DNA of 64,000 nucleotides from an uncultured Spirochaetota bacterium. GTDB taxonomy: Bacteria; Spirochaetota; UBA4802; UBA5550. Shown one piece after another: positions 5,962-48,516 of this stretch (position 1 is its first letter; each line of letters starts with the position of its first letter). The notes below the pieces were generated by a model. The model worked only from the letters and a program-made list of their open reading frames with translations. It did not search any database and was not told the origin of the DNA. The stretch is taken from positions 320,001 through 384,000 of the forward strand of contig CAWHAA010000004.1 in the NCBI GenBank assembly GCA_963827275.1. Reading direction: 5' to 3'. Both the position numbers and the translations under genes were made by a program.

Positions 5962-5997
5962 TAGTTATTCGCGATACACTATTTTCGAGGAAACAAC

Positions 5998-10246
<4,249 letters not shown>

Positions 10247-10253
10247 ACCGGTC

Positions 10254-10277
10254 GCGCCGCGCAGGGGTGCGCGGCGC
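10254..10277 (+). terminator. GC-rich hairpin after rpoC (no clear U-tract)
   Basis: GCGCCGCGCA-GGGG-TGCGCGGCGC, perfect 10-bp stem. Confidence 0.45.
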
Positions 10278-10404
10278 AGGCAATTAATATCAAATTAATA
10301 ACTTGACAAAAAATCGTCATAATTCACAAATACCATTCAATGGTATCTGATATAACATGGTTGATTATATGCGATATTATCAGTAATCAGGAACAGGAGT
10401 CAGA

Positions 10405-10780
10405 ATGCCAACGATCAACCAGTTAATCCGACAGGGACGGGAACAAAAAAGGAAGAAAACGAAATCCCCGGCCCTGAAAAGCTGCCCGCAGAAACGCGGA
10501 GTCTGCACCAGGGTCATGACCTTTACCCCGAAAAAACCGAACTCCGCCCTGCGGAAAGTCGCGCGGGTGCGCCTCACCAACGGCATTGAGGTGACGGCAT
10601 ATATACCCGGGAGTCGGCCACAATCTCCAGGAGCACAGCGCGGTGCTCATACGGGGCGGCCGGGTCAAGGACCTGCCGGGCGTGCGGTACCACATCATAC
10701 GGGGTACGCTCGACACCCTCGGCGTTGACGACCGGAGAAAGAGCCGCTCGAAATACGGGACAAAGCGGCCCAAGGCGTAA
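10405..10780 (+). CDS. rpsL: 30S ribosomal protein S12 (one apparent +1 frameshift near 10610)
   Basis: MPTINQL and [10 protein letters not shown], then [30 protein letters not shown] in the shifted frame. Confidence 0.97.
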
Positions 10781-10794
10781 TCATTCGATAGTGA

Positions 10795-11271
<477 letters not shown>

Positions 11272-11280
11272 GATGATTAT

Positions 11281-11312
11281 CACGCCCCCGCATTCGCGGG
11301 GGCGTGCTGTTT
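11281..11312 (+). terminator. Probable intrinsic terminator after rpsG
   Basis: CACGCCCCCGC-ATTC-GCGGGGGCGTG followed by CTGTTT. Confidence 0.65.
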
Positions 11313-11327
11313 AATAAGACGTTATTC

Positions 11328-11353
11328 GAAATACCAGGCATGCCTGGTATTTC
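11328..11353. repeat. Perfect 26-bp palindrome
   Basis: GAAATACCAGGCA|TGCCTGGTATTTC. Confidence 0.9.
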
Positions 11354-11429
11354 TTGTTTATTACACGATCGATTTTTCTCTATACGTACATGAGACGGCG
11401 CTCATTTTGCAGAAGTCTGCGGCGGTTTC

Positions 11430-11531
11430 GGCGGCACATATCTCACTCGCTCCGCCTCGTATTTACCTCCGTGTAAGCACTCGGCTGTCGGCGCCTTCCG
11501 TGGCGCCTGCTCGTTGAGATATGGTGCCGCC
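11430..11531. repeat. About 100-bp element bounded by inverted repeats (REP/MITE-like or structured RNA)
   Basis: GGCGGCAC-ATATCTCA ... TGAGATAT-g-GTGCCGCC encloses two small hairpins with loops CTCCGT and TTCCGT. Confidence 0.55.
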
Positions 11532-11572
11532 TAATACACGTTTGTTACGTCAAAAGGTCATTGAAGGTCACT

Positions 11573-13664
11573 ATGCCACGGGAACTGCCCCTAAACAGGA
11601 CGCGCAATATCGGCATCATGGCGCACATCGATGCGGGCAAGACCACGCTCACCGAGCGCATACTCTTTTACACCGGCAAGACCCACAAGATGGGCGAGGT
11701 CCACGAGGGCACCGCGGAGATGGACTGGATGGTGCAGGAAAAGGAGCGGGGCATCACCATCACCGCGGCCGCCACGACCTGCTTCTGGAAGAATACGATA
11801 ATAAACATCATCGATACGCCCGGGCCATGTCGATTTCACCATGGAGGTCGAGCGGAGCCTCAGGGTGCTCGATTCGGCCATCGCGGTGTTCGACGGTGTC
11901 GCCGGTGTCGAGCCGCAGTCGGAAACCGTGTGGCGGCAGGCGGACCACTATCATATCCCGCGCATCTGCTTCGTGAACAAGATGGACCGGGTGGGCGCCG
12001 ATTTCGAGCGGTGCCTCGACGATGATCAGGGAGCAGCTCAACGCGGTGCCGCTGCCGCTCCAGATGCCGCTGGGACTCGAGGACAGCCACCGCGGCGTCG
12101 TTGACTTCGTCGCCATGAAGGCGTACGTGTGGGCGGACGAACTGGGGACGGAGATACGAGAGACCGATATCCCGGAAGAATACAGGGAGAAAGCCCGCAG
12201 CTACCGGGAGGCGCTCCTTGAAACGATAGCCGAGCATGACGATGCACTCATGCACAAATACCTGGAGGGGATCGAACCTGACGAGCAGGAGATAAAGGAC
12301 GGTATCAGGAAGGCAACCGCTACCGCGGCGGTGTTTCCGGTCCTTTGCGGCTCGGCCCTGCGGAACAAGGGCGTCCAGCCCGTCCTCGACGCAATCGTCG
12401 ATTACCTCCCGTCGCCGCGGGACATCAGGCCGGTCGAGGGGCATAATCCGAAAAACCCTGACGAGATACTTCACCGGGAAGCGAACGACAAGGAGCCCTT
12501 CTGCGGCGCTGGTGTTCAAGCTTATGAGCGATCCCTACGTCGGCAAGCTTTCCTACCTGCGCGTCTATTCCGGCCACATGAAGACCGGCGACCAGGTGTA
12601 CAACGTCACCACCGGCAAGAAGGAGCGTGTCCAGCGCTTCCTCCGCATGCACGCAAACGACCGCTATGACATCAAGGAGGTGTACACCGGGGACATCATC
12701 GCCGTCGTGGGCCTGCGAAGCGCGCGCACCGGCGACACCCTCGCCGACGAAACGCAGCCGATCCTGCTGGAAAAGATGGAGTTCCCGGACCCGGTCATTT
12801 CGGTGGCGATAGAGCCGAAGACGAAGGCTGACCAGGAGAAGCTCGACGCGGCCCTGCAGCGCCTGGTCGATGAGGACCCAACGTTCCACGTGCATGCTGA
12901 CTCGGAGTCGGGCCAGACGCTCATCTCGGGGATGGGGGAGCTCCACCTCGAAATCATCGTCGACCGTCTCACGCGTGAATTCAACATCCACGCCAATGTC
13001 GGGAAGCCGCAGGTTACCTACAAGGAGACCATCACGAAGCCCGTCGATTCTGAATTCCGTTACGAAAAGCAGATCGGCGGCAAGGACCAGTCGGGCCACG
13101 TGGTCATTCGCATGGAGCCGGGCGGTCCCGGTACGGGCTTCATGTTCAAAAACGCGCTCAAGGGCGCGGAGATCCCGACGAATTTCTAAAGGACATCGAG
13201 GCGGGCCTGTCTGACGCAATGCAGGTCGGGCGTTATAGCCGGGTACCGCATGGACGGATATCACGGTCACCCTGACCGGCGGATCATATGATGAGGCGAC
13301 CTCGATCGGCATGGGGTACAGGATCGCCGCAGGCACGGCCCTCAGGGAGGGAGCGCGGAAGGCATCGCCGACCCTCATGGAGCCTGTCATGAAACTTGAG
13401 GTCGTATGTCCCGACGAGTACATGGGGGATGTGATCAACGATATCAATTCCCGCCGCGGCAGGATCGAAAATATCAATATTCGCGGCATGATGAAGGTCA
13501 TCGACGCCTTCGTGCCGCTTTCCGAGGTCTTCGGGTACTCGACGAGCGTGCGCTCCATGAGCCAGGGAAGGGCGACGCATACCCTCCAGATATCCCATTA
13601 CGAGGTGGTGCCGAAAGATATCACCGACCGGATTGTCGGGAGAATGACGGGAGCTTTCTATTGA
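11573..13664 (+). CDS. fusA: Elongation factor G with divergent domain IV (about 6 apparent frameshifts near 11822, 12020, 12508, 13176, 13230, 13253)
   Basis: [37 protein letters not shown] and LMEP motifs across frames; str-operon position. Confidence 0.93.
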
Positions 13665-13731
13665 TTTTTTTGGTAAGAGGGCAATTTTTTTAAATTAATA
13701 TCCAATTTTGAATAATTTTTTCATTAATTTG

Positions 13732-41008: not shown

Positions 41009-42661
<1,653 letters not shown>

Positions 42662-42701
42662 GATACTGCCAACGCCCGAACCATTATTCGAGTCAAACCT
42701 G

Positions 42702-42736
42702 CGGCCGGGGCCCATATCCCCGGCCGTTTTATTTTT
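42702..42736 (+). terminator. Intrinsic terminator after groEL
   Basis: CGGCCGGGG-N7-CCCCGGCCG followed by TTTTATTTTT. Confidence 0.85.
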
Positions 42737-42922
42737 CACCTGCCCCTCACCCGCCCGGCGGCCGCGGCGGTCCCGCATGCTCACGGAAAACATGGCGTCG
42801 CTGTCAAAAAAGAAATAATTCAGATAAATGAGCGATATTCCGATCATTGATACGGGGAATCGTGAAACATTGCAGGCGGAGTCCCCGGGGAAGCCGTGTG
42901 CAAAAAAAGTCAATATGGATGT

Positions 42923-43807
42923 ATGATGGATACCGTTCCGCTCGTGCTGCCGAACAGGCTTAAAGACACGTATGATTTTGAATACGTGATAGATATGCAG
43001 GACGCAATATACGGCCAGGCCGCAGGGCTTGACCTGTCGCGCATATCCTTCATAGAGCCGTATTCAATGCTCTCGCTGCTGCTTCTCGGCAGGAACTATT
43101 TGAGGAAAAGCGGCAACAAGCTCAGGCTGACCGGCATCCCGATCAATATCCACCAGTACCTTCACCGGATGGATTTCTTCAAAACAGGGGTCTTCGACGT
43201 GCCCGAGCGCCTTAACGAGAAGCTCCTGCTGAAGCGGAGCACGTTCAGCAACCGGGTGCTCGAGATCACCGAGATCCCGAACAAGGAGCGGGAAAGCGTC
43301 CGCATCATATCAGGGATCGTCGGCGTTTTCAGGAAGCGGGCCGAGCACATATTGAAGTACTGGCTTTCGGACCGCATTACGGATTATTTCGTCACGGTGA
43401 TCTCCGAGATCTGCCAGAATATATACGAGCACAGCCTCGACTCGGGCTACCTCGCGATGCAGACGTATTCGGTGGGCAAGGAAAATATCGTGCGGCTGTC
43501 GATCGGCGATTCGGGCATCGGTATATTGAAGAGCTTTGAAAACAACGGCGTGCGGTATGACTCGCCCGCCCACCTGATTGAGCTGGCGGTCACGACGCCC
43601 ATATCGAGCAAGCGGGAGTTCGGCTACGGGCTCTGCCAGGTGAACGCCATCGTGGAGAAGCTGAAGGGGTCGATATTTTTACGGTCGGGAAACGCGTCGG
43701 TATCGACGCTGTATCAGAAAAAGTCGGCAGGCTCTTCCTACCTGTTCCAGAAGAACGACCTGCGTCCCTTCGACGGGACGCAGATTTCAATATCATTGAC
43801 GGGATAG
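42923..43807 (+). CDS. STAS-like plus GHKL/HATPase protein (RsbW/SpoIIAB-like Ser kinase fold)
   Basis: N-terminal LDLSRISFIEP..YLHRMDFF; N-box EICQNIYEHS, G1 IGDSGIGI, G2 GYGL and GTQISI; no recognisable H-box. Confidence 0.8.
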   Translation: MMDTVPLVLPNRLKDTYDFEYVIDMQDAIYGQAAGLDLSRISFIEPYSMLSLLLLGRNYLRKSGNKLRLTGIPINIHQYLHRMDFFKTGVFDVPERLNEKLLLKRSTFSNRVLEITEIPNKERESVRIISGIVGVFRKRAEHILKYWLSDRITDYFVTVISEICQNIYEHSLDSGYLAMQTYSVGKENIVRLSIGDSGIGILKSFENNGVRYDSPAHLIELAVTTPISSKREFGYGLCQVNAIVEKLKGSIFLRSGNASVSTLYQKKSAGSSYLFQKNDLRPFDGTQISISLTG

Positions 43808-43819
43808 AGAATATTCAAC

Positions 43820-44368
43820 ATGGTAATCAGCATAAATAAAAAAGCTCAGGAGCTCAGGCTCAAAACCCCGGACCTGATCACCCGGCATGTCGGCCGCGTC
43901 ATGTATGATTCGATCAGGAAGACCGTTGAGGCCGTCAATGACGGCGAGACACTGGTGCTCGATTTCGGGGGGATCAAGGTCATTGATTCGTCGTTTATCG
44001 ACGAGATGCTGGTCAGGCTGATACTCGATTCGCGTTCGCCGGAGCGGCCTTTCTTCGTGAGGCTGAAGAACGTATCTGAAATCGCTGAAATCAACATAGA
44101 CCTCGTGTTCCGCTCCTATTCAAATTATAAAAATAAAAAAATAGTTGTAATAACCGAAAACATCTGTCAGAATAATTCGTTCTTTATCGGGCCGCTGTCG
44201 GACCGGGAACGGGACATTCTGGCATACCTGAGGGTGAACAAGTCCATTACCGTGGATGACGTTGCCGCTTTTACCGGACGACCCGGGGAAGAAGCAAAAA
44301 AAATAATGGACGAGCTGTACGCGATGCGCGCGGCGAGGGACCTCGACGGCGTGTATTTTTCGGTATAG
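43820..44368 (+). CDS. STAS-like (DUF4325-type) domain fused to a C-terminal winged HTH
   Basis: LVLDFGGIKVIDSSFIDE; C-terminal LSDRERDILAYL..SITVDDVA..GEEAKKIMDEL. Confidence 0.7.
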   Translation: MVISINKKAQELRLKTPDLITRHVGRVMYDSIRKTVEAVNDGETLVLDFGGIKVIDSSFIDEMLVRLILDSRSPERPFFVRLKNVSEIAEINIDLVFRSYSNYKNKKIVVITENICQNNSFFIGPLSDRERDILAYLRVNKSITVDDVAAFTGRPGEEAKKIMDELYAMRAARDLDGVYFSV

Positions 44369-44404
44369 CCCGGTGCGGTCCGGAGCATCCCTTACGAAAA
44401 ACGG

Positions 44405-44914
44405 GTGGAGCAGCGGATGAAGCCGCAAGAAAAAAACATCAGCAGGGTAAAAGACGACAGCCTCTACGGGCTCCTCTCCTCCTATAAATCAAATTATACC
44501 TATTTCCGGATCCTTGTCTCCGAGGCGGATGATTCGATCCTGGTCCAGCTGACCGACAATCCGAAGAATTTCGAGCCGGCGCCGGGAGAACGGTATGTAA
44601 ACTACCGGCCGCTCAGAAGGCTCGAGGTTGGCGTGACGAGGCTGTTCCTGAAATACCTGGTGCCGGCAAACCTCGTCGCGGTACTGGGCCCGCTCCTGGA
44701 ATTCAACATCCCGCCGGACAGGGTCGTGATCACCGACAGCATCAGGAAAAGCGGCATCTACGCCATTGAAACGAATGTGAAGCACAGGATGAAGATCATT
44801 CAGGGGGTGCGCAAAATCCTCAACATGAGCCCCCAGAAAAAATATGAGATAGTGGAAAAATATCTTTCCGGCAACCAGGAAAAACACCATGACCGAACAG
44901 AACGATTCATTTAG
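44405..44914 (+). CDS. Hypothetical protein
   Basis: 169-aa ORF with host-like codon usage; overlaps the next gene. Confidence 0.7.
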   Translation: MEQRMKPQEKNISRVKDDSLYGLLSSYKSNYTYFRILVSEADDSILVQLTDNPKNFEPAPGERYVNYRPLRRLEVGVTRLFLKYLVPANLVAVLGPLLEFNIPPDRVVITDSIRKSGIYAIETNVKHRMKIIQGVRKILNMSPQKKYEIVEKYLSGNQEKHHDRTERFI

Positions 44915-45911
44915 CGAGAAATCCCGGCAGGTCGACAGGGCGATGAGGTATACCCACGGGGACATCATCAAGGCCAAGGAGATGGTTTCCGGCCAGTACC
45001 TTGATGTCATGGTGGTGAAGGGGAAATTCCTTATTGAAAAGAAGGGGATATCCGGCATGTTTCTGGCGTTTTTCAACTATATCCAGGAGTATATCCCCTG
45101 CGTGGAAGCAATCATATCGTCCAAGCCGGTACTGTTCGAGAAGACGCGGATCTTCGACGACTGGAAGGTCCTCAACAAGGACATCGAGGCCTACAAGGGC
45201 AGCCCCGACATGATGGATTCGCATAATTTCACCTATTTCCTGATAGATTCATTCATCGGGTACGACGTATTTCCTGATGTGCAGGAGAATAATATCGCGG
45301 GCCTGACGAAAACAATCACGGAGATCATTGCCAGGTCGTTCAATGCCGCTGCCATCAAATGCCAGGTCGAGACGGAAACCTCCAGCTCGCTTGCGCTCGA
45401 CCTTGCCGGGGTGACCATCGAGCTGCCCGGCGCCGAGGCCCAGGAGGAGAAGGTCCTCACCGAGGAAGACCAGCGCATCGTGAATATCGAGAAGGAGGCG
45501 AAGTATGTCGTCGAGGGTAAGGCCATCCTCTCGCCGGTCCGCGGGAAAAACGCGAGCGACCTGGCCCCCGGTGACAAGATCAGGGTCATGCTTTCCGGGA
45601 ACGACCTGGTGACGGCAAAAATTCTGAAGCTGCTGAATGCGTATGATCCAGACGGCTCGCGCCTTCCGATCACCGGCAGGATAAAGGCGCGGGTGCCGAT
45701 GGAAAAGGGAGGCTACATGCTGTACGCGTTCGTGGCCAAGGGGGCCCTGGCGAAGATATTCGAGGAGGAGAATGTCAAAATTATGGTCGATGCCCCGCAG
45801 GATGAATTCGCGCAAACCACCCCCCGGTTTGACAGGTGGCTGATATATGTCCTCGCCCTGCTGCTCGGGCTCATCGTGCTGAGCGGAATAGTCCTCCTGC
45901 AGATACTGTGA
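44889..45911 (+). CDS. Hypothetical tail-anchored membrane protein
   Basis: 340-aa ORF; single C-terminal TM segment WLIYVLALLLGLIVLSGIVLL. Confidence 0.8.
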   Translation: MTEQNDSFSEKSRQVDRAMRYTHGDIIKAKEMVSGQYLDVMVVKGKFLIEKKGISGMFLAFFNYIQEYIPCVEAIISSKPVLFEKTRIFDDWKVLNKDIEAYKGSPDMMDSHNFTYFLIDSFIGYDVFPDVQENNIAGLTKTITEIIARSFNAAAIKCQVETETSSSLALDLAGVTIELPGAEAQEEKVLTEEDQRIVNIEKEAKYVVEGKAILSPVRGKNASDLAPGDKIRVMLSGNDLVTAKILKLLNAYDPDGSRLPITGRIKARVPMEKGGYMLYAFVAKGALAKIFEEENVKIMVDAPQDEFAQTTPRFDRWLIYVLALLLGLIVLSGIVLLQIL

Positions 45912-45913
45912 GC

Positions 45914-46801
45914 ATGACCATGGACGGGAAGGCCGCGCGCGCACTCCTGTTTTTCCTCCTTCCGGCGCTTTTCGCGCAGATGCCGGACTGGAAGTACTTC
46001 AGGGACCGGCAGGGCAACGCCTATTTTTTTGACCAGGCGGGGAAGATCCATATCACCGATGCCGTTGAGTACAGGTACCGGCCGGTATCTCCGGCGGGCA
46101 TCGATTATTTCCTGGAGTATGCGACCACCCTCATCAATGAGCACCGCCCCGCCGAGGGGATCTCCGTGCTCAAGTCGATATGCGCGCTCCCGGCCGGCAA
46201 CAACCGGATCGTGCGGGCGCAGAAGCGGGCAGCGGAGCTTCTCAACGCCTTGAAAAGGAGAAATGGCCCGCGGTTTGACGCGATGAATGAATCGTCGTCG
46301 CTGATCCTTTACAGCCTTGACGGCGCCACCACGGTCATCAATGACCGGATGCGGTATTCATTCAGGGCCCCCGAACGGATCGATGTCGTCCGGAAGCGCG
46401 ACCGGCGGCGCCTTGAATACCGGTACTCGGGGATACAGTTCGGCGTCCGGACAGCGGGAAATGCCGCCGCGTCCGGCGGCGCCTATGATTTCCTTGTTGC
46501 GGTGGACAGCGAGAAGTTTTCCGTCCCCCTGCGGGACCTGTCCGAGGCGGTTGACGTGTGGAGGGGAACTATCGGGCACCAGGGCCTTACGCGTGAGGTG
46601 CTGGAGCAGGCGGCGGACCGGGTCCTGTACCTCTTCAAAAGCGGCGATCGTCCCGATTACGCGGGTATCGAGGGGATTATTTTCAACGGGAAGTACAGCC
46701 ATTACGTCCGCATCATCGCTTCCGGTCCGGGCTACCGCGAATACGGCGGGCTCATGCGGACAATGATACGCGGGTTCACAACCGTTTCCGGCGAGCGGTG
46801 A
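45914..46801 (+). CDS. Hypothetical exported protein
   Basis: Signal peptide ALLFFLLPALFA-Q; start region abuts the upstream stop codon. Confidence 0.7.
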   Translation: MTMDGKAARALLFFLLPALFAQMPDWKYFRDRQGNAYFFDQAGKIHITDAVEYRYRPVSPAGIDYFLEYATTLINEHRPAEGISVLKSICALPAGNNRIVRAQKRAAELLNALKRRNGPRFDAMNESSSLILYSLDGATTVINDRMRYSFRAPERIDVVRKRDRRRLEYRYSGIQFGVRTAGNAAASGGAYDFLVAVDSEKFSVPLRDLSEAVDVWRGTIGHQGLTREVLEQAADRVLYLFKSGDRPDYAGIEGIIFNGKYSHYVRIIASGPGYREYGGLMRTMIRGFTTVSGER

Positions 46802-46806
46802 GCGCC

Positions 46807-47274
46807 CTATGCGCCGGTATATTCAAGCGCGCTCTCATTGCAGGTTTCCTGCCTCGTGCAGTTGATGCAGTCCTTCCAGATTTTTTCCGGCAGCGTGTCC
46901 ATGTTGATGGCGGAAAACCCGTTTTTTTCGAAGAACGCGGGCGCGTAGGTGAGGACAAAGATTTTCGGATTGTTCCCGCCCGTGAGCCCCGCTATGAGCC
47001 TGTGCAGAAGCGCTGACCCGATGCCGCGCCGCAGGTATTTCTTTGCAACGGCGAGGGAGCGGACCTCTTTTAAATGGTCCCCGTAGTCATAAAACGTGAT
47101 AACGCCTGCGACCGCCCCGTGTATATCGGCGACAAGGTAATTATGCAGGTTGTCGTGTATATCGTCAATGCTGCGGGAGAGAAGAATGCCTTCCTCGGCG
47201 TAGGAGTCTATGATCCGGTATATGGAATCGATGTCCCCCGCGACGGCGTTCCTGACTGAGACGGTTGATTTCAA
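46807..47274 (-). CDS. GNAT N-acetyltransferase, short ArgA-like
   Basis: YAEEGILLSR, EVRSLAV..RRGIG, FVLT..FF and LPEKIWKDC..C motifs. Confidence 0.88.
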   Translation of the reverse strand: MKSTVSVRNAVAGDIDSIYRIIDSYAEEGILLSRSIDDIHDNLHNYLVADIHGAVAGVITFYDYGDHLKEVRSLAVAKKYLRRGIGSALLHRLIAGLTGGNNPKIFVLTYAPAFFEKNGFSAINMDTLPEKIWKDCINCTRQETCNESALEYTGA

Positions 47275-48000: not shown

Positions 48001-48162
48001 ATTCTCCTTTAAAATTCGACATTGTTGGATAATTGCATAAGAAATAAATTTCTGTCCCGGACAAAATGACTGGCGCACGGCGGGAAGCGGGTGCGGTATA
48101 AATTCCAGGACACAGGTTTTTTTTCTTGATTCGCAGGGGGTTTGTTCTATAAGATTGGCGTC

Positions 48163-48516
48163 ATGATTGAAATTACCGATAACGGCTCATATTTCACGAT
48201 ATCGATCAAGATCGAGGAACTGGATTTCATCAAGACCCCGAAGTTCTCCGACTACATGAAGGAGAAACTGAATGAGATGAGCTATCCCAACATCATTCTC
48301 GACCTCGAAAAGCTGTATTATATCGATTCGACGGGATTGAGCTTCCTGATCAATATCAGCCGCAAGATCAGGGAGAGCAGCAATGAAATGGTGGTGGTAT
48401 GCTCCAGCGCAAAGATTCTGCAGCTTTTTGATATAGCGAAAATAGGCATGTTTTTTAAAATATTCGACACAATTGAAAACGCGGAGATGTATCTGGTTTC
48501 AAGAAAGGGGATATAA
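48163..48516 (+). CDS. STAS-domain anti-sigma factor antagonist
   Basis: ELDF, IILDLEKLYYIDSTGL and LFDI motifs. Confidence 0.88.
   Translation: MIEITDNGSYFTISIKIEELDFIKTPKFSDYMKEKLNEMSYPNIILDLEKLYYIDSTGLSFLINISRKIRESSNEMVVVCSSAKILQLFDIAKIGMFFKIFDTIENAEMYLVSRKGI

What the first reader, a model, noticed from the sequence alone, without database searches (positions are those of the whole stretch)
42923..44368. Candidate partner-switching module whose STAS target is fused to a winged-helix domain
Seen: gene 1 has an N-terminal STAS-like segment and a complete GHKL ATP-binding fold with no histidine-kinase H-box. Gene 2 starts 12 nt later and has a STAS-like domain (IDSSF) followed by a wHTH-like tail. 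Established: SpoIIAB/RsbW kinases phosphorylate the Ser in the D-S-[ST]-G motif of SpoIIAA/RsbV and normally act through a sigma factor. No sigma factor, PP2C phosphatase, PIN toxin or PRTase is recognisable nearby. Inference: a sigma-independent Ser-phosphorylation switch that directly controls a DNA-binding protein. The groEL terminator insulates it from groESL.
Basis: partly seen in the sequence, partly recalled or inferred. Interest (0 to 1): 0.7.

Follow-up and report, generated by a model that had tools for sequence, protein, structure and literature searches.

The report
CapK/CapS-like kinase switch, spirochaete core operon
These two adjacent genes encode a serine-kinase-like protein and its predicted substrate, distant chromosomal relatives of the CapK/CapS switch published in 2026, so the kind of switch is already known; here the pair heads a conserved housekeeping operon of uncultured spirochaetes, and the substrate's DNA-reading helix looks degenerate, so it likely acts on proteins, not DNA.

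Summary
Gene 1 (42923-43807) is an N-terminal STAS fold joined to a SpoIIAB/RsbW-type GHKL domain, with no histidine-kinase dimerisation/H-box part. Gene 2 (43820-44368) starts 12 nt later and is a STAS fold plus a winged helix.

The idea of a sigma-independent Ser-phosphorylation switch acting on a wHTH protein is no longer new. It is the CapK/CapS mechanism (Chambers et al., EMBO J 2026, PMC13373217). Gene 2 is a full-length but remote CapS homologue, and its invariant Ser58 aligns with the family's conserved serine.

Differences from CapK/CapS:
- The kinase lacks CapK's N-terminal HTH.
- No defence genes lie nearby.
- The pair is single-copy and co-occurs in all 42 genomes of five families of one spirochaete order.
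- It heads a conserved block K-S-d1-d2(-d3) behind its own promoter-like box.
- The wHTH recognition helix is the least conserved part of the protein and is slightly acidic, whereas in CapS-like relatives it is the best conserved and basic.

I read it as a CapK/CapS-derived phospho-switch whose output is probably protein contacts (inferred), with a repressor role as the main rival. The scan had already reported this operon on another genome (e1-715415).

The parts
42701..42737 (+). Intrinsic terminator of groEL (10-bp G+C-rich stem, then a T run). It separates groESL from the K-S operon.
   Evidence: stem 42701-42727, tail TTTATTTTTC; sequence read
42810..42849 (+). Conserved promoter-like boxes: AAGAAATAATTCAG (42810-42823), a 15-nt spacer, then TCCGATCAT (42839-42847). 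The CCGAT box resembles the -10 element of sigma-28 promoters. That consensus is recalled from memory, not taken from a call.
   Evidence: Alignment of 11 same-genus loci. CCGAT lies within 150 nt upstream of K in 77 of 107 loci, against 864 of 5399 background windows (16%); the antisense form occurs in 14 of 107. It is the top enriched 6-mer family.
42923..43807 (+). K: 294-aa STAS (res 1-96; 42923-43210) + SpoIIAB/RsbW-type GHKL domain (res 109-294; 43247-43804). The N-box Asn166 codon is 43418-43420.
   Evidence: single copy in the genome
43820..44368 (+). S: 182-aa STAS (res 1-112; 43820-44155) + winged helix (res 124-182; 44189-44365). The invariant Ser58 codon is 43991-43993, in the motif D-x-S-F-x-D-E.
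   Evidence: single copy
44405..44914 (+). d1: 169-aa protein of no known family. It begins 36 nt after S and overlaps d2 by 26 nt.
44889..45911 (+). d2: 340-aa protein with a hydrophobic C-terminus. It is a weak LIC10486-family / DUF4899 match and belongs to a phylum-wide, multi-copy spirochaete family.
45836..46801 (+). d3: conserved third downstream gene. The ORF as listed starts at GTG 45836. Homology begins near residue 48 and an internal Met precedes a hydrophobic, signal-like stretch, so the true start is probably near 45914.
   Evidence: (present in 68 of 80 loci)

Best explanation
The two genes are a chromosomal CapK/CapS-type pair. K, a STAS-fused kinase of the anti-sigma (SpoIIAB/RsbW) structural type, is predicted to phosphorylate the invariant Ser58 on the STAS domain of S and thereby likely switch what S binds.

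Shown:
- the domain folds of both proteins;
- intact ATP-binding motifs in K;
- full-length homology of S to CapS;
- strict adjacency and co-occurrence of K and S;
- a conserved gene block K-S-d1-d2(-d3) with its own promoter-like box behind the groEL terminator.

Inferred:
- that K phosphorylates Ser58;
- that phosphorylation disrupts an S dimer or an S-partner complex, as it does in CapS and VapS;
- that the output here is protein contacts, most plausibly with the co-operonic d1/d2 proteins as in VapK-VapS-VapC, and not operator reading, because the recognition helix of the winged helix has lost the CapS-family motif on the recognition helix, is the least conserved part of S and is slightly acidic.

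The signal that activates K is unknown. It is ssDNA for CapK.
For: Folds:
- K residues 109-294 match SpoIIAB (Z 12.5), RsbW (Z 11.0) and UsfX (Z 10.2), above most histidine-kinase CA domains (Z <= 8; LvrC 9.2). K residues 1-96 match STAS (Z 8.9).
- S residues 1-112 match STAS and residues 124-182 match a winged helix.

Motifs:
- Asn166, D196-G198-G200 and G234-G236 are invariant in 25 K sequences.
- Ser58 is present in all 101 full-length S homologues that hold the region, and in all 95 of the 108 locus translations that matched the motif pattern.

Homology:
- The S profile against a 40-sequence profile of 180-205-aa relatives gives hhalign probability 99.9, E 1.3e-34, over 171 columns.
- That second profile hits the CapS structures 9z71 (E 2.8e-23) and 9z72 (E 8.4e-23) over their full length, and VapS 9z7o at 1e-3.
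- The shared motif D-x-S-F-x-D-E places Ser58 on the family's conserved serine.
- CapS Ser54 phosphorylation by CapK, the resulting dimer loss and de-repression, and VapS release from VapC are experimental results of PMC13373217 (sections read).

Linkage:
- S follows K in 79 of 79 loci with room. d1 is present in 78 of 80 loci and d2 in 77 of 80.
- The order K-S-d1-d2 holds in 28 of 28 further loci.
- The K and S profiles hit the same 42 genomes: f1 21/21, f2 9/9, f3 6/6, f5 2/2, f6 3/3, plus the window's own.

Output:
- In S, the recognition helix has entropy 2.59 bits against 1.52 for STAS, charge -0.6, and the C-terminal domain has charge -1.5 (126 sequences).
- In the CapS-like relatives the figures are 1.85 against 2.56, +2.3 and +2.0 (40 sequences).
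- The gaps are only 12 nt (K-S) and 36 nt (S-d1; median 33 nt in 106 loci). That leaves no room for the internal operators that CapS uses.
Against: - No kinase assay and no complex model exist. Complex prediction never ran, so neither K-S docking nor any S-d1/d2 contact was tested.
- VapS, the precedent for a protein output, has no winged helix. S keeps a confidently folded one (pLDDT above 90), which would be odd if the domain were idle.
- One locus (L101) has K-S without d1-d2. Family f4 has d1-d2-d3 without K-S. The two parts can therefore exist apart.
- The direct sequence link of S to CapS is weak (profile against 9z72 E 0.024, against 9z71 E 1). The homology rests on an intermediate family.
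- The K model has only moderate confidence (pLDDT 74.4).
- A fast-evolving recognition helix could also mean co-evolving operators and not loss of DNA binding.
Confidence: 0.45

Rival explanations
1. CapS-like repressor. S would bind DNA through its winged helix and repress its own operon (K-S-d1-d2-d3) from the upstream promoter. K would phosphorylate Ser58, break the S dimer and de-repress the operon, exactly as in CapK/CapS.
For: S is a full-length homologue of CapS, a proven DNA-binding repressor (PMC13373217). Its wHTH fold superposes on MarR/ArsR/CadC at rmsd 1.1-1.8 A. The pair sits upstream of a conserved operon, as capKS does. The blocks around the promoter-like boxes are conserved over more bases than typical -35/-10 hexamers.
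Against: The recognition helix is the least conserved part of S, and the wHTH domain is net acidic on average. The N-x-A-S-x-R-L motif on the recognition helix of CapS-like proteins is replaced by variable or acidic residues. The unbiased 6-mer enrichment upstream of K in 106 loci gives the CCGAT box and A/T runs but no palindrome. There is no room for the capK-capS and capS-downstream operators (gaps of 12 and 36 nt).
Confidence: 0.3
2. Classical partner switching in trans. K would be an anti-sigma factor that holds a sigma factor encoded elsewhere, and S its antagonist. The candidate is sigma-28, given the CCGAT box, which would feed back on the operon as sigma-B does on rsbV-rsbW.
For: K's GHKL domain is structurally closest to the anti-sigma factors SpoIIAB, RsbW and UsfX. 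The promoter box resembles a sigma-28 -10 element (consensus recalled). FliA is encoded in the genome (289 bits). The genome carries a large partner-switching set: 36 SpoIIE/PP2C and 27 HATPase_c_2 matches.
Against: No sigma factor lies in or next to the operon in any of the loci examined. A FlgM anti-sigma-28 homologue is present (50 bits). In the related CapK and VapK systems no sigma factor takes part (PMC13373217). K carries its own STAS domain, unlike SpoIIAB and RsbW.
Confidence: 0.1
3. K is not a protein kinase for S. K would act as an ATPase or ligand sensor whose own STAS domain (invariant Ser48 in the motif E-P-Y-S-M at the start of helix 2) serves as a pseudo-substrate, and S would be a structural partner whose conserved serine has a non-phospho role.
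For: K's own STAS domain keeps an invariant Ser48 at the position where STAS proteins are phosphorylated. No phosphorylation has been shown for this clade.
Against: Ser58 of S is invariant in every homologue examined and aligns with the family's conserved serine, which the paper shows to be the phospho-acceptor (CapS Ser54). All ATP-binding motifs of K are invariant.
Confidence: 0.08

Closest known systems
CapK + CapS (Chambers, Rani, Min, Villa, Corbett; EMBO J 2026, PMC13373217; CapS structures 9z71, 9z72, 9z73)
   Same: A GHKL kinase carrying its own STAS domain is followed at once by a STAS-wHTH protein of about 184 aa, with a conserved serine at the start of STAS helix 2 in the motif D-x-S-F. 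No sigma factor takes part. The pair sits upstream of the genes it goes with. S is a full-length homologue through an intermediate family.
   Different: K lacks CapK's N-terminal HTH. No immune operon or other defence gene lies nearby (PADLOC found nothing for four proteins; the Pfam scan of 48 window ORFs shows housekeeping genes). The pair is single-copy and vertically conserved in one spirochaete order, not scattered. The intergenic gaps are too short for the two CapS operators. The CapS-family motif on the recognition helix is missing and that helix is unconserved and acidic. Direct sequence similarity is marginal.
VapK-VapS-VapC (same paper)
   Same: The kinase has STAS + GHKL and no HTH, like K. 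It is followed by a STAS protein and then by the protein that the STAS protein controls by direct binding, all in one tight operon. The S profile hits VapS 9z7o at E 0.0012.
   Different: VapS is short (about 116 aa) with a C-terminal helix and no winged helix. The third gene there is a PIN toxin, whereas d1 matches no family. Relatives of the same order also keep d1-d2-d3 without K-S, so d1-d3 are not toxins that need S.
SpoIIAB-SpoIIAA and RsbW-RsbV partner-switching modules
   Same: These give the best structural matches for K's kinase domain (Z 12.5 and 11.0) and for S's STAS domain (Z 7.3-7.4). The phospho-serine position at the start of helix 2 is the same.
   Different: There is no sigma factor and no PP2C in the operon. 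The kinase is fused to a STAS domain, and the substrate is fused to a winged helix.
Chromosomal K/S-like pairs in metagenomes (nearest non-spirochaete relatives, loci L114-L193)
   Same: A STAS-wHTH protein lies downstream of a 280-321-aa STAS+GHKL kinase that matches the K profile over its full length (E 1e-15 to 1e-44). None of the 52 downstream ORFs scanned (of 137 candidates; Pfam only) hit a defence-specific family; most are housekeeping, and L155 carries a DNA methylase.
   Different: They keep the conserved, basic recognition helix. Their downstream genes differ: rmuC, cinA-recA, Cys/Met enzymes, Mrp/NUBPL, flagellar rod genes.

Membership tests
CapS | N-terminal STAS domain followed by a C-terminal wHTH, about 184 aa | tested here: met
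   182 aa. The model has pLDDT 91.2. STAS Z 7.3-8.3 and wHTH Z 5.1-5.8 at rmsd 1.1-1.5 A. Profile-profile probability 99.9 over 171 columns to a family that hits 9z71 and 9z72 at about 1e-23.
CapS | Absolutely conserved serine on STAS helix 2 (E. roggenkampii Ser54) | tested here: met
   Ser58 is invariant in 101 of 101 full-length homologues. It aligns with the conserved serine of the D-x-S-F motif. That it is phosphorylated was not tested.
CapS | Conserved DNA-contact residues on the recognition helix and wing (N145, K151, G169-G170 in the paper) | tested here: not met
   The N-x-A-S-x-R-L motif of CapS-like proteins aligns with variable or acidic residues (E157...D164-E165). The helix is the least conserved segment and is slightly acidic.
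CapS | Binds palindromic operators in its own promoter and in the downstream promoter | tested here: inconclusive
   No palindromic 6-mer is enriched upstream of K in 106 loci. The gaps are 12 nt and 36 nt. Binding itself cannot be tested here.
CapK | HTH-STAS-GHKL architecture | tested here: not met
   STAS begins at residue 1 and GHKL at about residue 109. There is no N-terminal HTH in the 294 aa. STAS+GHKL alone is the VapK-type architecture.
CapK | Kinase gene immediately followed by the STAS-wHTH gene | tested here: met
   79 of 79 loci with room, 28 of 28 further loci, and the same 42 genomes for both profiles.
CapK/CapS | Encoded upstream of an anti-phage immune operon | tested here: not met
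   PADLOC gives no hit for K, S, d1 or d2. The neighbours are groESL, d1-d3, GNAT, SPOR and rluB.
CapK | Kinase activated by single-stranded DNA (W68, K237, K239) | not testable with these tools
VapK-VapS-VapC | Third gene encodes a VapC/PIN toxin held by the STAS protein | tested here: not met
   d1 and d2 have no PIN match. Pfam finds nothing for d1 and a PDB profile search finds nothing.
SpoIIAB/RsbW-type partner switching | Anti-sigma-type GHKL Ser kinase fold | tested here: met
   1l0o_A Z 12.5, 6m36_A Z 11.0, 8ih8_C Z 10.2. HATPase_c_2 matches weakly in 22 of 25 homologues.
SpoIIAB/RsbW-type partner switching | Cognate sigma factor and PP2C phosphatase in the module | tested here: not met
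   Neither is among the window ORFs scanned. There are 36 PP2C matches elsewhere; the nearest listed is C4:302657, about 17 kb before the start of the window.
Pfam DUF4325 (PF14213) | Score at or above the gathering cut-off of 23 bits | tested here: inconclusive
   22.9 bits for the protein and 24.1 bits in the six-frame genome search. Many homologues carry PF14213 in the precomputed column.

The most novel reading that the evidence does not exclude
In this spirochaete order a CapS-derived protein has given up reading DNA. The K-S phospho-switch acts at the protein level on the spirochaete-specific d1-d2-d3 (DUF4899/LIC10486-type) module. The whole operon is driven from a sigma-28-type promoter, which ties an unknown signal (possibly ssDNA, as for CapK) to a motility- or envelope-linked function. 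That would show that the CapK/CapS module is a general signalling device of bacteria, with outputs beyond transcription and toxins.
Probability: 0.25. Interest if true: 0.6.

Novelty: new variant of a known kind. Interest (0 to 1): 0.4.

Why it matters
CapK/CapS was described in 2026 as a regulator of anti-phage operons. This locus, together with the metagenomic relatives next to rmuC, recA and metabolic genes, suggests that the same kinase-substrate module is also fixed in core genomes far from any defence system. Here it has been kept for the whole history of a spirochaete order.

It would also give a first experimental handle on a widespread spirochaete protein family of unknown function (LIC10486/DUF4899).

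For the scan itself, the result is mainly a re-filing.

Tried and rejected
- **Complex prediction (K + ATP + S).** The queue was full, and the calls in between were not sent on. Nothing was folded, so docking of Ser58 at the ATP site and any S-d1/d2 contact remain untested.
- **CapS structures in the fold libraries.** 9z71-9z73 did not appear in the Foldseek or VIA-align lists. The fold libraries may not hold them (the Foldseek copy ends 2026-04-08). This says nothing about the fold.
- **Direct S profile against PDB sequences.** Only marginal hits came back (9z7o 0.0012, 9z72 0.024, 9z71 1). The link to CapS needed the intermediate family.
- **K profile against PDB sequences.** Only weak histidine-kinase hits (E 0.03 and weaker).
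- **d1 and d2.** ESM Atlas gave no usable hit. PDB profile searches found nothing. Pfam found nothing for d1 and weak DUF4899 in 8 of 19 d2 sequences. Both structure-prediction jobs had gone to K and S, so d1 and d2 were not folded.
- **Genome-wide scan for a TTCA/TACA-N14-17-CCGAT pattern.** It gave 57 hits, apparently mostly inside coding sequence, which was too loose to define a regulon. Flagellin upstream regions showed no clear canonical box, so the sigma-28 reading of the CCGAT box stays an inference.
- **groESL as the regulated target.** Rejected, because groEL lies upstream in only 31 of 74 loci with room and is cut off by a terminator.
- **Defence island.** Rejected.
- **An SOS-substitute role.** Not supported, because LexA is present.
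- **Expression.** No RNA holder was listed for 42600-46900, and no reads were laid.
- **The search for related loci with the 40-sequence alignment on viral contigs.** A 5-sequence subset was used on metagenome contigs instead.
Full report
**What is there.** The window is a core chromosomal stretch of a spirochaete genome assembled from a metagenome (G000: 4.13 Mb, 11 contigs, 92% complete). It carries rpoBC, the ribosomal protein cluster, secY, rpoA, moaC and groESL, and further on cell-wall genes (SPOR, amidase, M23, deacetylase). After groEL (41024-42661) comes an intrinsic terminator at 42701-42727 with a T run. Four tightly packed + strand ORFs follow:
- K, 42923-43807;
- S, 43820-44368, 12 nt later;
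- d1, 44405-44914, 36 nt later;
- d2, 44889-45911, overlapping d1 by 26 nt.

A fifth ORF, d3, runs to 46801.

**Check of the observation.** K matches Pfam HATPase_c just over the cut-off (26.7 against 26.4 bits), and so do all 25 aligned homologues. The ATP-binding motifs are invariant in those 25 sequences: N-box Asn166, G1 D196/G198/G200 and G2 G234/G236. The AlphaFold model of K (pLDDT 74.4) was compared with about 48,000 PDB representatives.
- Residues 109-294 match the anti-sigma serine kinases best: SpoIIAB 1l0o_A Z 12.5, rmsd 2.5 A over 130 of 141 residues; RsbW 6m36_A Z 11.0; UsfX 8ih8_C Z 10.2; the RsbW domain of Rv1364c Z 10.1.
- Most histidine-kinase ATP-binding (CA) domains score at or below Z 8; Leptospira LvrC (9qih_B) scores Z 9.2.
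- Residues 1-96 match STAS domains (Z 8.9, rmsd 2.7-2.9 A over 92 residues).
- Foldseek alone gave only generic GHKL matches.
- No dimerisation/H-box domain is present.

S scores 22.9 bits on DUF4325 ('STAS-like') against a cut-off of 23, and 24.1 bits in the six-frame search. Its model is confident (pLDDT 91.2, pTM 0.86). Residues 1 to about 112 match STAS: the first 22 rows are all STAS proteins, at Z 5.9-8.3. Residues 124-182 match winged helices of the ArsR/MarR/CadC kind, at rmsd 1.1-1.8 A over 55-63 residues. One correction applies. In 'IDSSF' the invariant serine is the second one, Ser58. Position 57 is S, P, T, A or L.

**The idea is already in print.** A profile of S searched against PDB sequences gave marginal hits to 'Escherichia VapS' (9z7o, E 0.0012) and to two 184-185-aa wHTH regulators (9z72 E 0.024, 9z71 E 1). 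A text search on those names led to Chambers et al., EMBO J 2026 (PMC13373217). I read its abstract and sections 7, 9-14 and 17. I did not open its datasets or supplements, so I cannot say whether any spirochaete pair is listed there. The paper reports the following:
- CapK (HTH-STAS-GHKL) phosphorylates the conserved Ser54 of CapS (STAS-wHTH) when ssDNA is present.
- Phosphorylation breaks the CapS dimer and releases it from TTAA palindromes, which de-represses an adjacent immune operon.
- A sister system, VapK-VapS-VapC, uses an HTH-less kinase and a short STAS protein that holds a PIN toxin until it is phosphorylated.

Two further searches found no other paper on such pairs. 'DUF4325' occurs in three papers, once in each by the search listing's occurrence count. 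I saw only that listing.

**Is S a CapS homologue?** A profile search of 1.84 billion representatives gave 259 hits at E <= 1e-3. Of these, 29 fall at or below 1e-30 (the spirochaete family itself). A second tier of 180-205-aa proteins then matches over nearly the full length at E 1e-14 to 1e-5. I aligned 40 of them.
- They share the motif D-x-S-F-A-D-E and a conserved helix of the form N-x-A-S-x-R-L.
- Their profile hits the CapS structures 9z71 (E 2.8e-23) and 9z72 (E 8.4e-23) over the full length.
- The S-family profile aligns to it with probability 99.9, E 1.3e-34, over 171 columns.

S is thus a full-length, remote member of the CapS superfamily, and Ser58 falls on the family's conserved serine. 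In metagenome loci of these second-tier proteins, an ORF matching the K profile over its full length (E 1e-15 to 1e-44; 280-321 aa; 396 aa in L164/L165) lies upstream on the same strand. It sits within 400 nt in 27 of 50 loci with at least 900 nt of upstream room, further off in some loci, and was not found in others. The kinases share the motifs P-[YF]-G/S-[ML], Y..R..FF, SE.CQNI.EH, D.G.G, G.GL, RSG.A and F.G.QI with K. No CapK sequence was on hand for a direct test.

**Distribution and linkage.** In 301 sampled genomes of the phylum, the S profile gives strong, single, full-length matches in 41 genomes plus the window's own: families f1 21/21, f2 9/9, f3 6/6, f5 2/2 and f6 3/3. It gives none in f4 (0/4), and only weak partial matches outside the order (7 genomes, E 7e-7 to 4e-4). 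The K profile at E <= 1e-15 hits the same 42 genomes, plus two weak partial matches in f14. Both genes are single-copy in G000.

Gene order is as follows:
- K-S-d1-d2 holds in 20 of 20 and in 8 of 8 loci taken from these genomes.
- Among 80 loci found through K in species-representative genomes (all labelled Spirochaetes, Spirochaetota or Leptospirales MAGs, except one 'uncultured bacterium' (L110) and one titled Leptospira biflexa (L091)), S follows K in 79 of 79 with room. d1 is present in 78 of 80, d2 in 77 of 80 and d3 in 68 of 80.
- The one real exception, L101, has K-S-d3.
- The two sets of loci overlap in genomes and the genomes are related, so these counts show conservation and are not independent events.
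- groEL lies upstream in only 31 of 74 loci with room, so the groESL neighbourhood is a feature of family f1.
- Family f4 keeps d1-d2-d3 without K-S, behind unrelated genes (M23/LysM, bactofilin, DUF327).
- d2 belongs to a phylum-wide, multi-copy family (227 of 301 genomes). It is a weak LIC10486 match and a weak DUF4899 match (8 of 19).
- d1 has no match in any library tried.

K-S is therefore an order-specific regulatory add-on placed in front of an older spirochaete gene set.

**Promoter.** Upstream of K, 11 same-genus loci share two blocks, AAGAAATAATTCAG and (T)CCGATCAT, 15 nt apart (window 42810-42847). CCGAT occurs within 150 nt upstream of K in 77 of 107 loci, against 864 of 5399 (16%) background windows and 14 of 107 for the antisense word. 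Its median position is -71. It also heads an unbiased 6-mer enrichment, in which no palindrome appears. Loci of family f3 read TAAATGTT-N12-TCCGATAT. From memory, the sigma-28 consensus is TAAA-N15-GCCGATAA, so I read the box as a sigma-28-type -10 element. This is an inference. FliA is encoded in the genome, but flagellin upstream regions gave no clean box.

**How it most likely works.**
- Shown: the folds, the intact ATP site, the invariant Ser58, the homology to CapS, the strict linkage of K and S, and the conserved operon.
- Inferred with fair confidence: K phosphorylates Ser58 and this changes what S binds.
- Open: the output.

Against a CapS-like repressor:
- In 126 S-family sequences the recognition helix (156-168) is the least conserved segment (entropy 2.59 bits against 1.52 for STAS).
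- It carries a mean charge of -0.6, inside a C-terminal domain of -1.5.
- In the 40 CapS-like relatives the same helix is better conserved than STAS (1.85 against 2.56) and basic (+2.3; domain +2.0).
- The N-x-A-S-x-R-L motif aligns with E157...D164-E165 in S.
- The K-S and S-d1 gaps (12 nt and 36 nt; median 33 nt) leave no room for the two operators that CapS uses.

For a repressor, the winged helix is kept and folds confidently, and the linker plus helix 1 (F121-S142) is highly conserved.

I therefore favour a VapS-like protein output on d1/d2 (confidence about 0.45 for the whole statement). The autoregulating repressor is the main rival (0.3). An anti-sigma role in trans is less likely (0.1), because FlgM is present. 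A non-kinase role is least likely (0.08). The activating signal is unknown. The genome has LexA, so the pair is not an SOS substitute.

**Verdict.** That mechanism was published in 2026, and the 'DNA-binding' end of it is the weakest point in this clade. This is a new variant of a known kind: chromosomal, order-wide, without defence genes, without an HTH on the kinase, and with a degenerate recognition helix.

After reaching this reading I looked up earlier notes of the scan. Note e1-715415 reports the same spirochaete five-gene operon on another genome with the same conclusion. Several other notes report core-genome CapK/CapS-like pairs in Gemmatimonadota.

Noticed in passing
window 7400-13700: rpoC, rpsL and fusA are each spread over several reading frames. 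rpoC domains 1-3 lie in 5965-7812, domains 3-5 in 7439-8938 in another frame, and the end of domain 5 in 9595-10194. Only half of rpsL is in frame. fusA is in three pieces. Breaks in essential genes most likely mean indel errors of the assembly in this G+C-rich stretch. K and S are intact.
   Followed up: partly
window 48142-48516 (+): A canonical single-domain STAS anti-sigma-factor antagonist (PF01740 55.8 bits; TIGR00377 62.5 bits) stands alone between a SPOR-domain gene and rluB, 3.8 kb downstream of S. The genome holds 36 SpoIIE/PP2C and 27 HATPase_c_2 matches, so it has a large conventional partner-switching network.
   Followed up: partly
loci L114-L193 (metagenome contigs): The nearest non-spirochaete relatives of S are also chromosomal K/S-like pairs. 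Recurrent downstream genes are rmuC (8 loci), cinA-ligT-recA (L150), a UvrD/PD-(D/E)XK helicase-nuclease (L146), Cys/Met PLP enzyme + AI-2E + ABC (7 loci), Mrp/NUBPL (4 loci), GalT + heptosyltransferase (4 loci) and flgB-flgC-fliF (L118). The DNA-repair neighbours fit the ssDNA sensing reported for CapK. Only 52 of 137 candidate ORFs were scanned.
   Followed up: partly
window 42810-42849 and upstream of K in L002-L110: A sigma-28-like CCGAT box is conserved upstream of K across five families, but I could not find the same box upstream of the genome's flagellin genes. Which sigma factor reads it is open.
   Followed up: partly
window 42923-43210 (K residues 43-49): K's own STAS domain carries an invariant F-I-E-P-Y-S-M motif, with Ser48 at the start of helix 2, the position phosphorylated in STAS substrates. 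The P-[YF]-[GS]-[ML] core is shared with the metagenomic K-like kinases. It could be a pseudo-substrate or a ligand site.
   Followed up: no
L101 (genome contigs locus): This is the only locus where K-S is followed directly by d3, without d1 and d2. It is a natural deletion that could tell whether S needs d1/d2.
   Followed up: no
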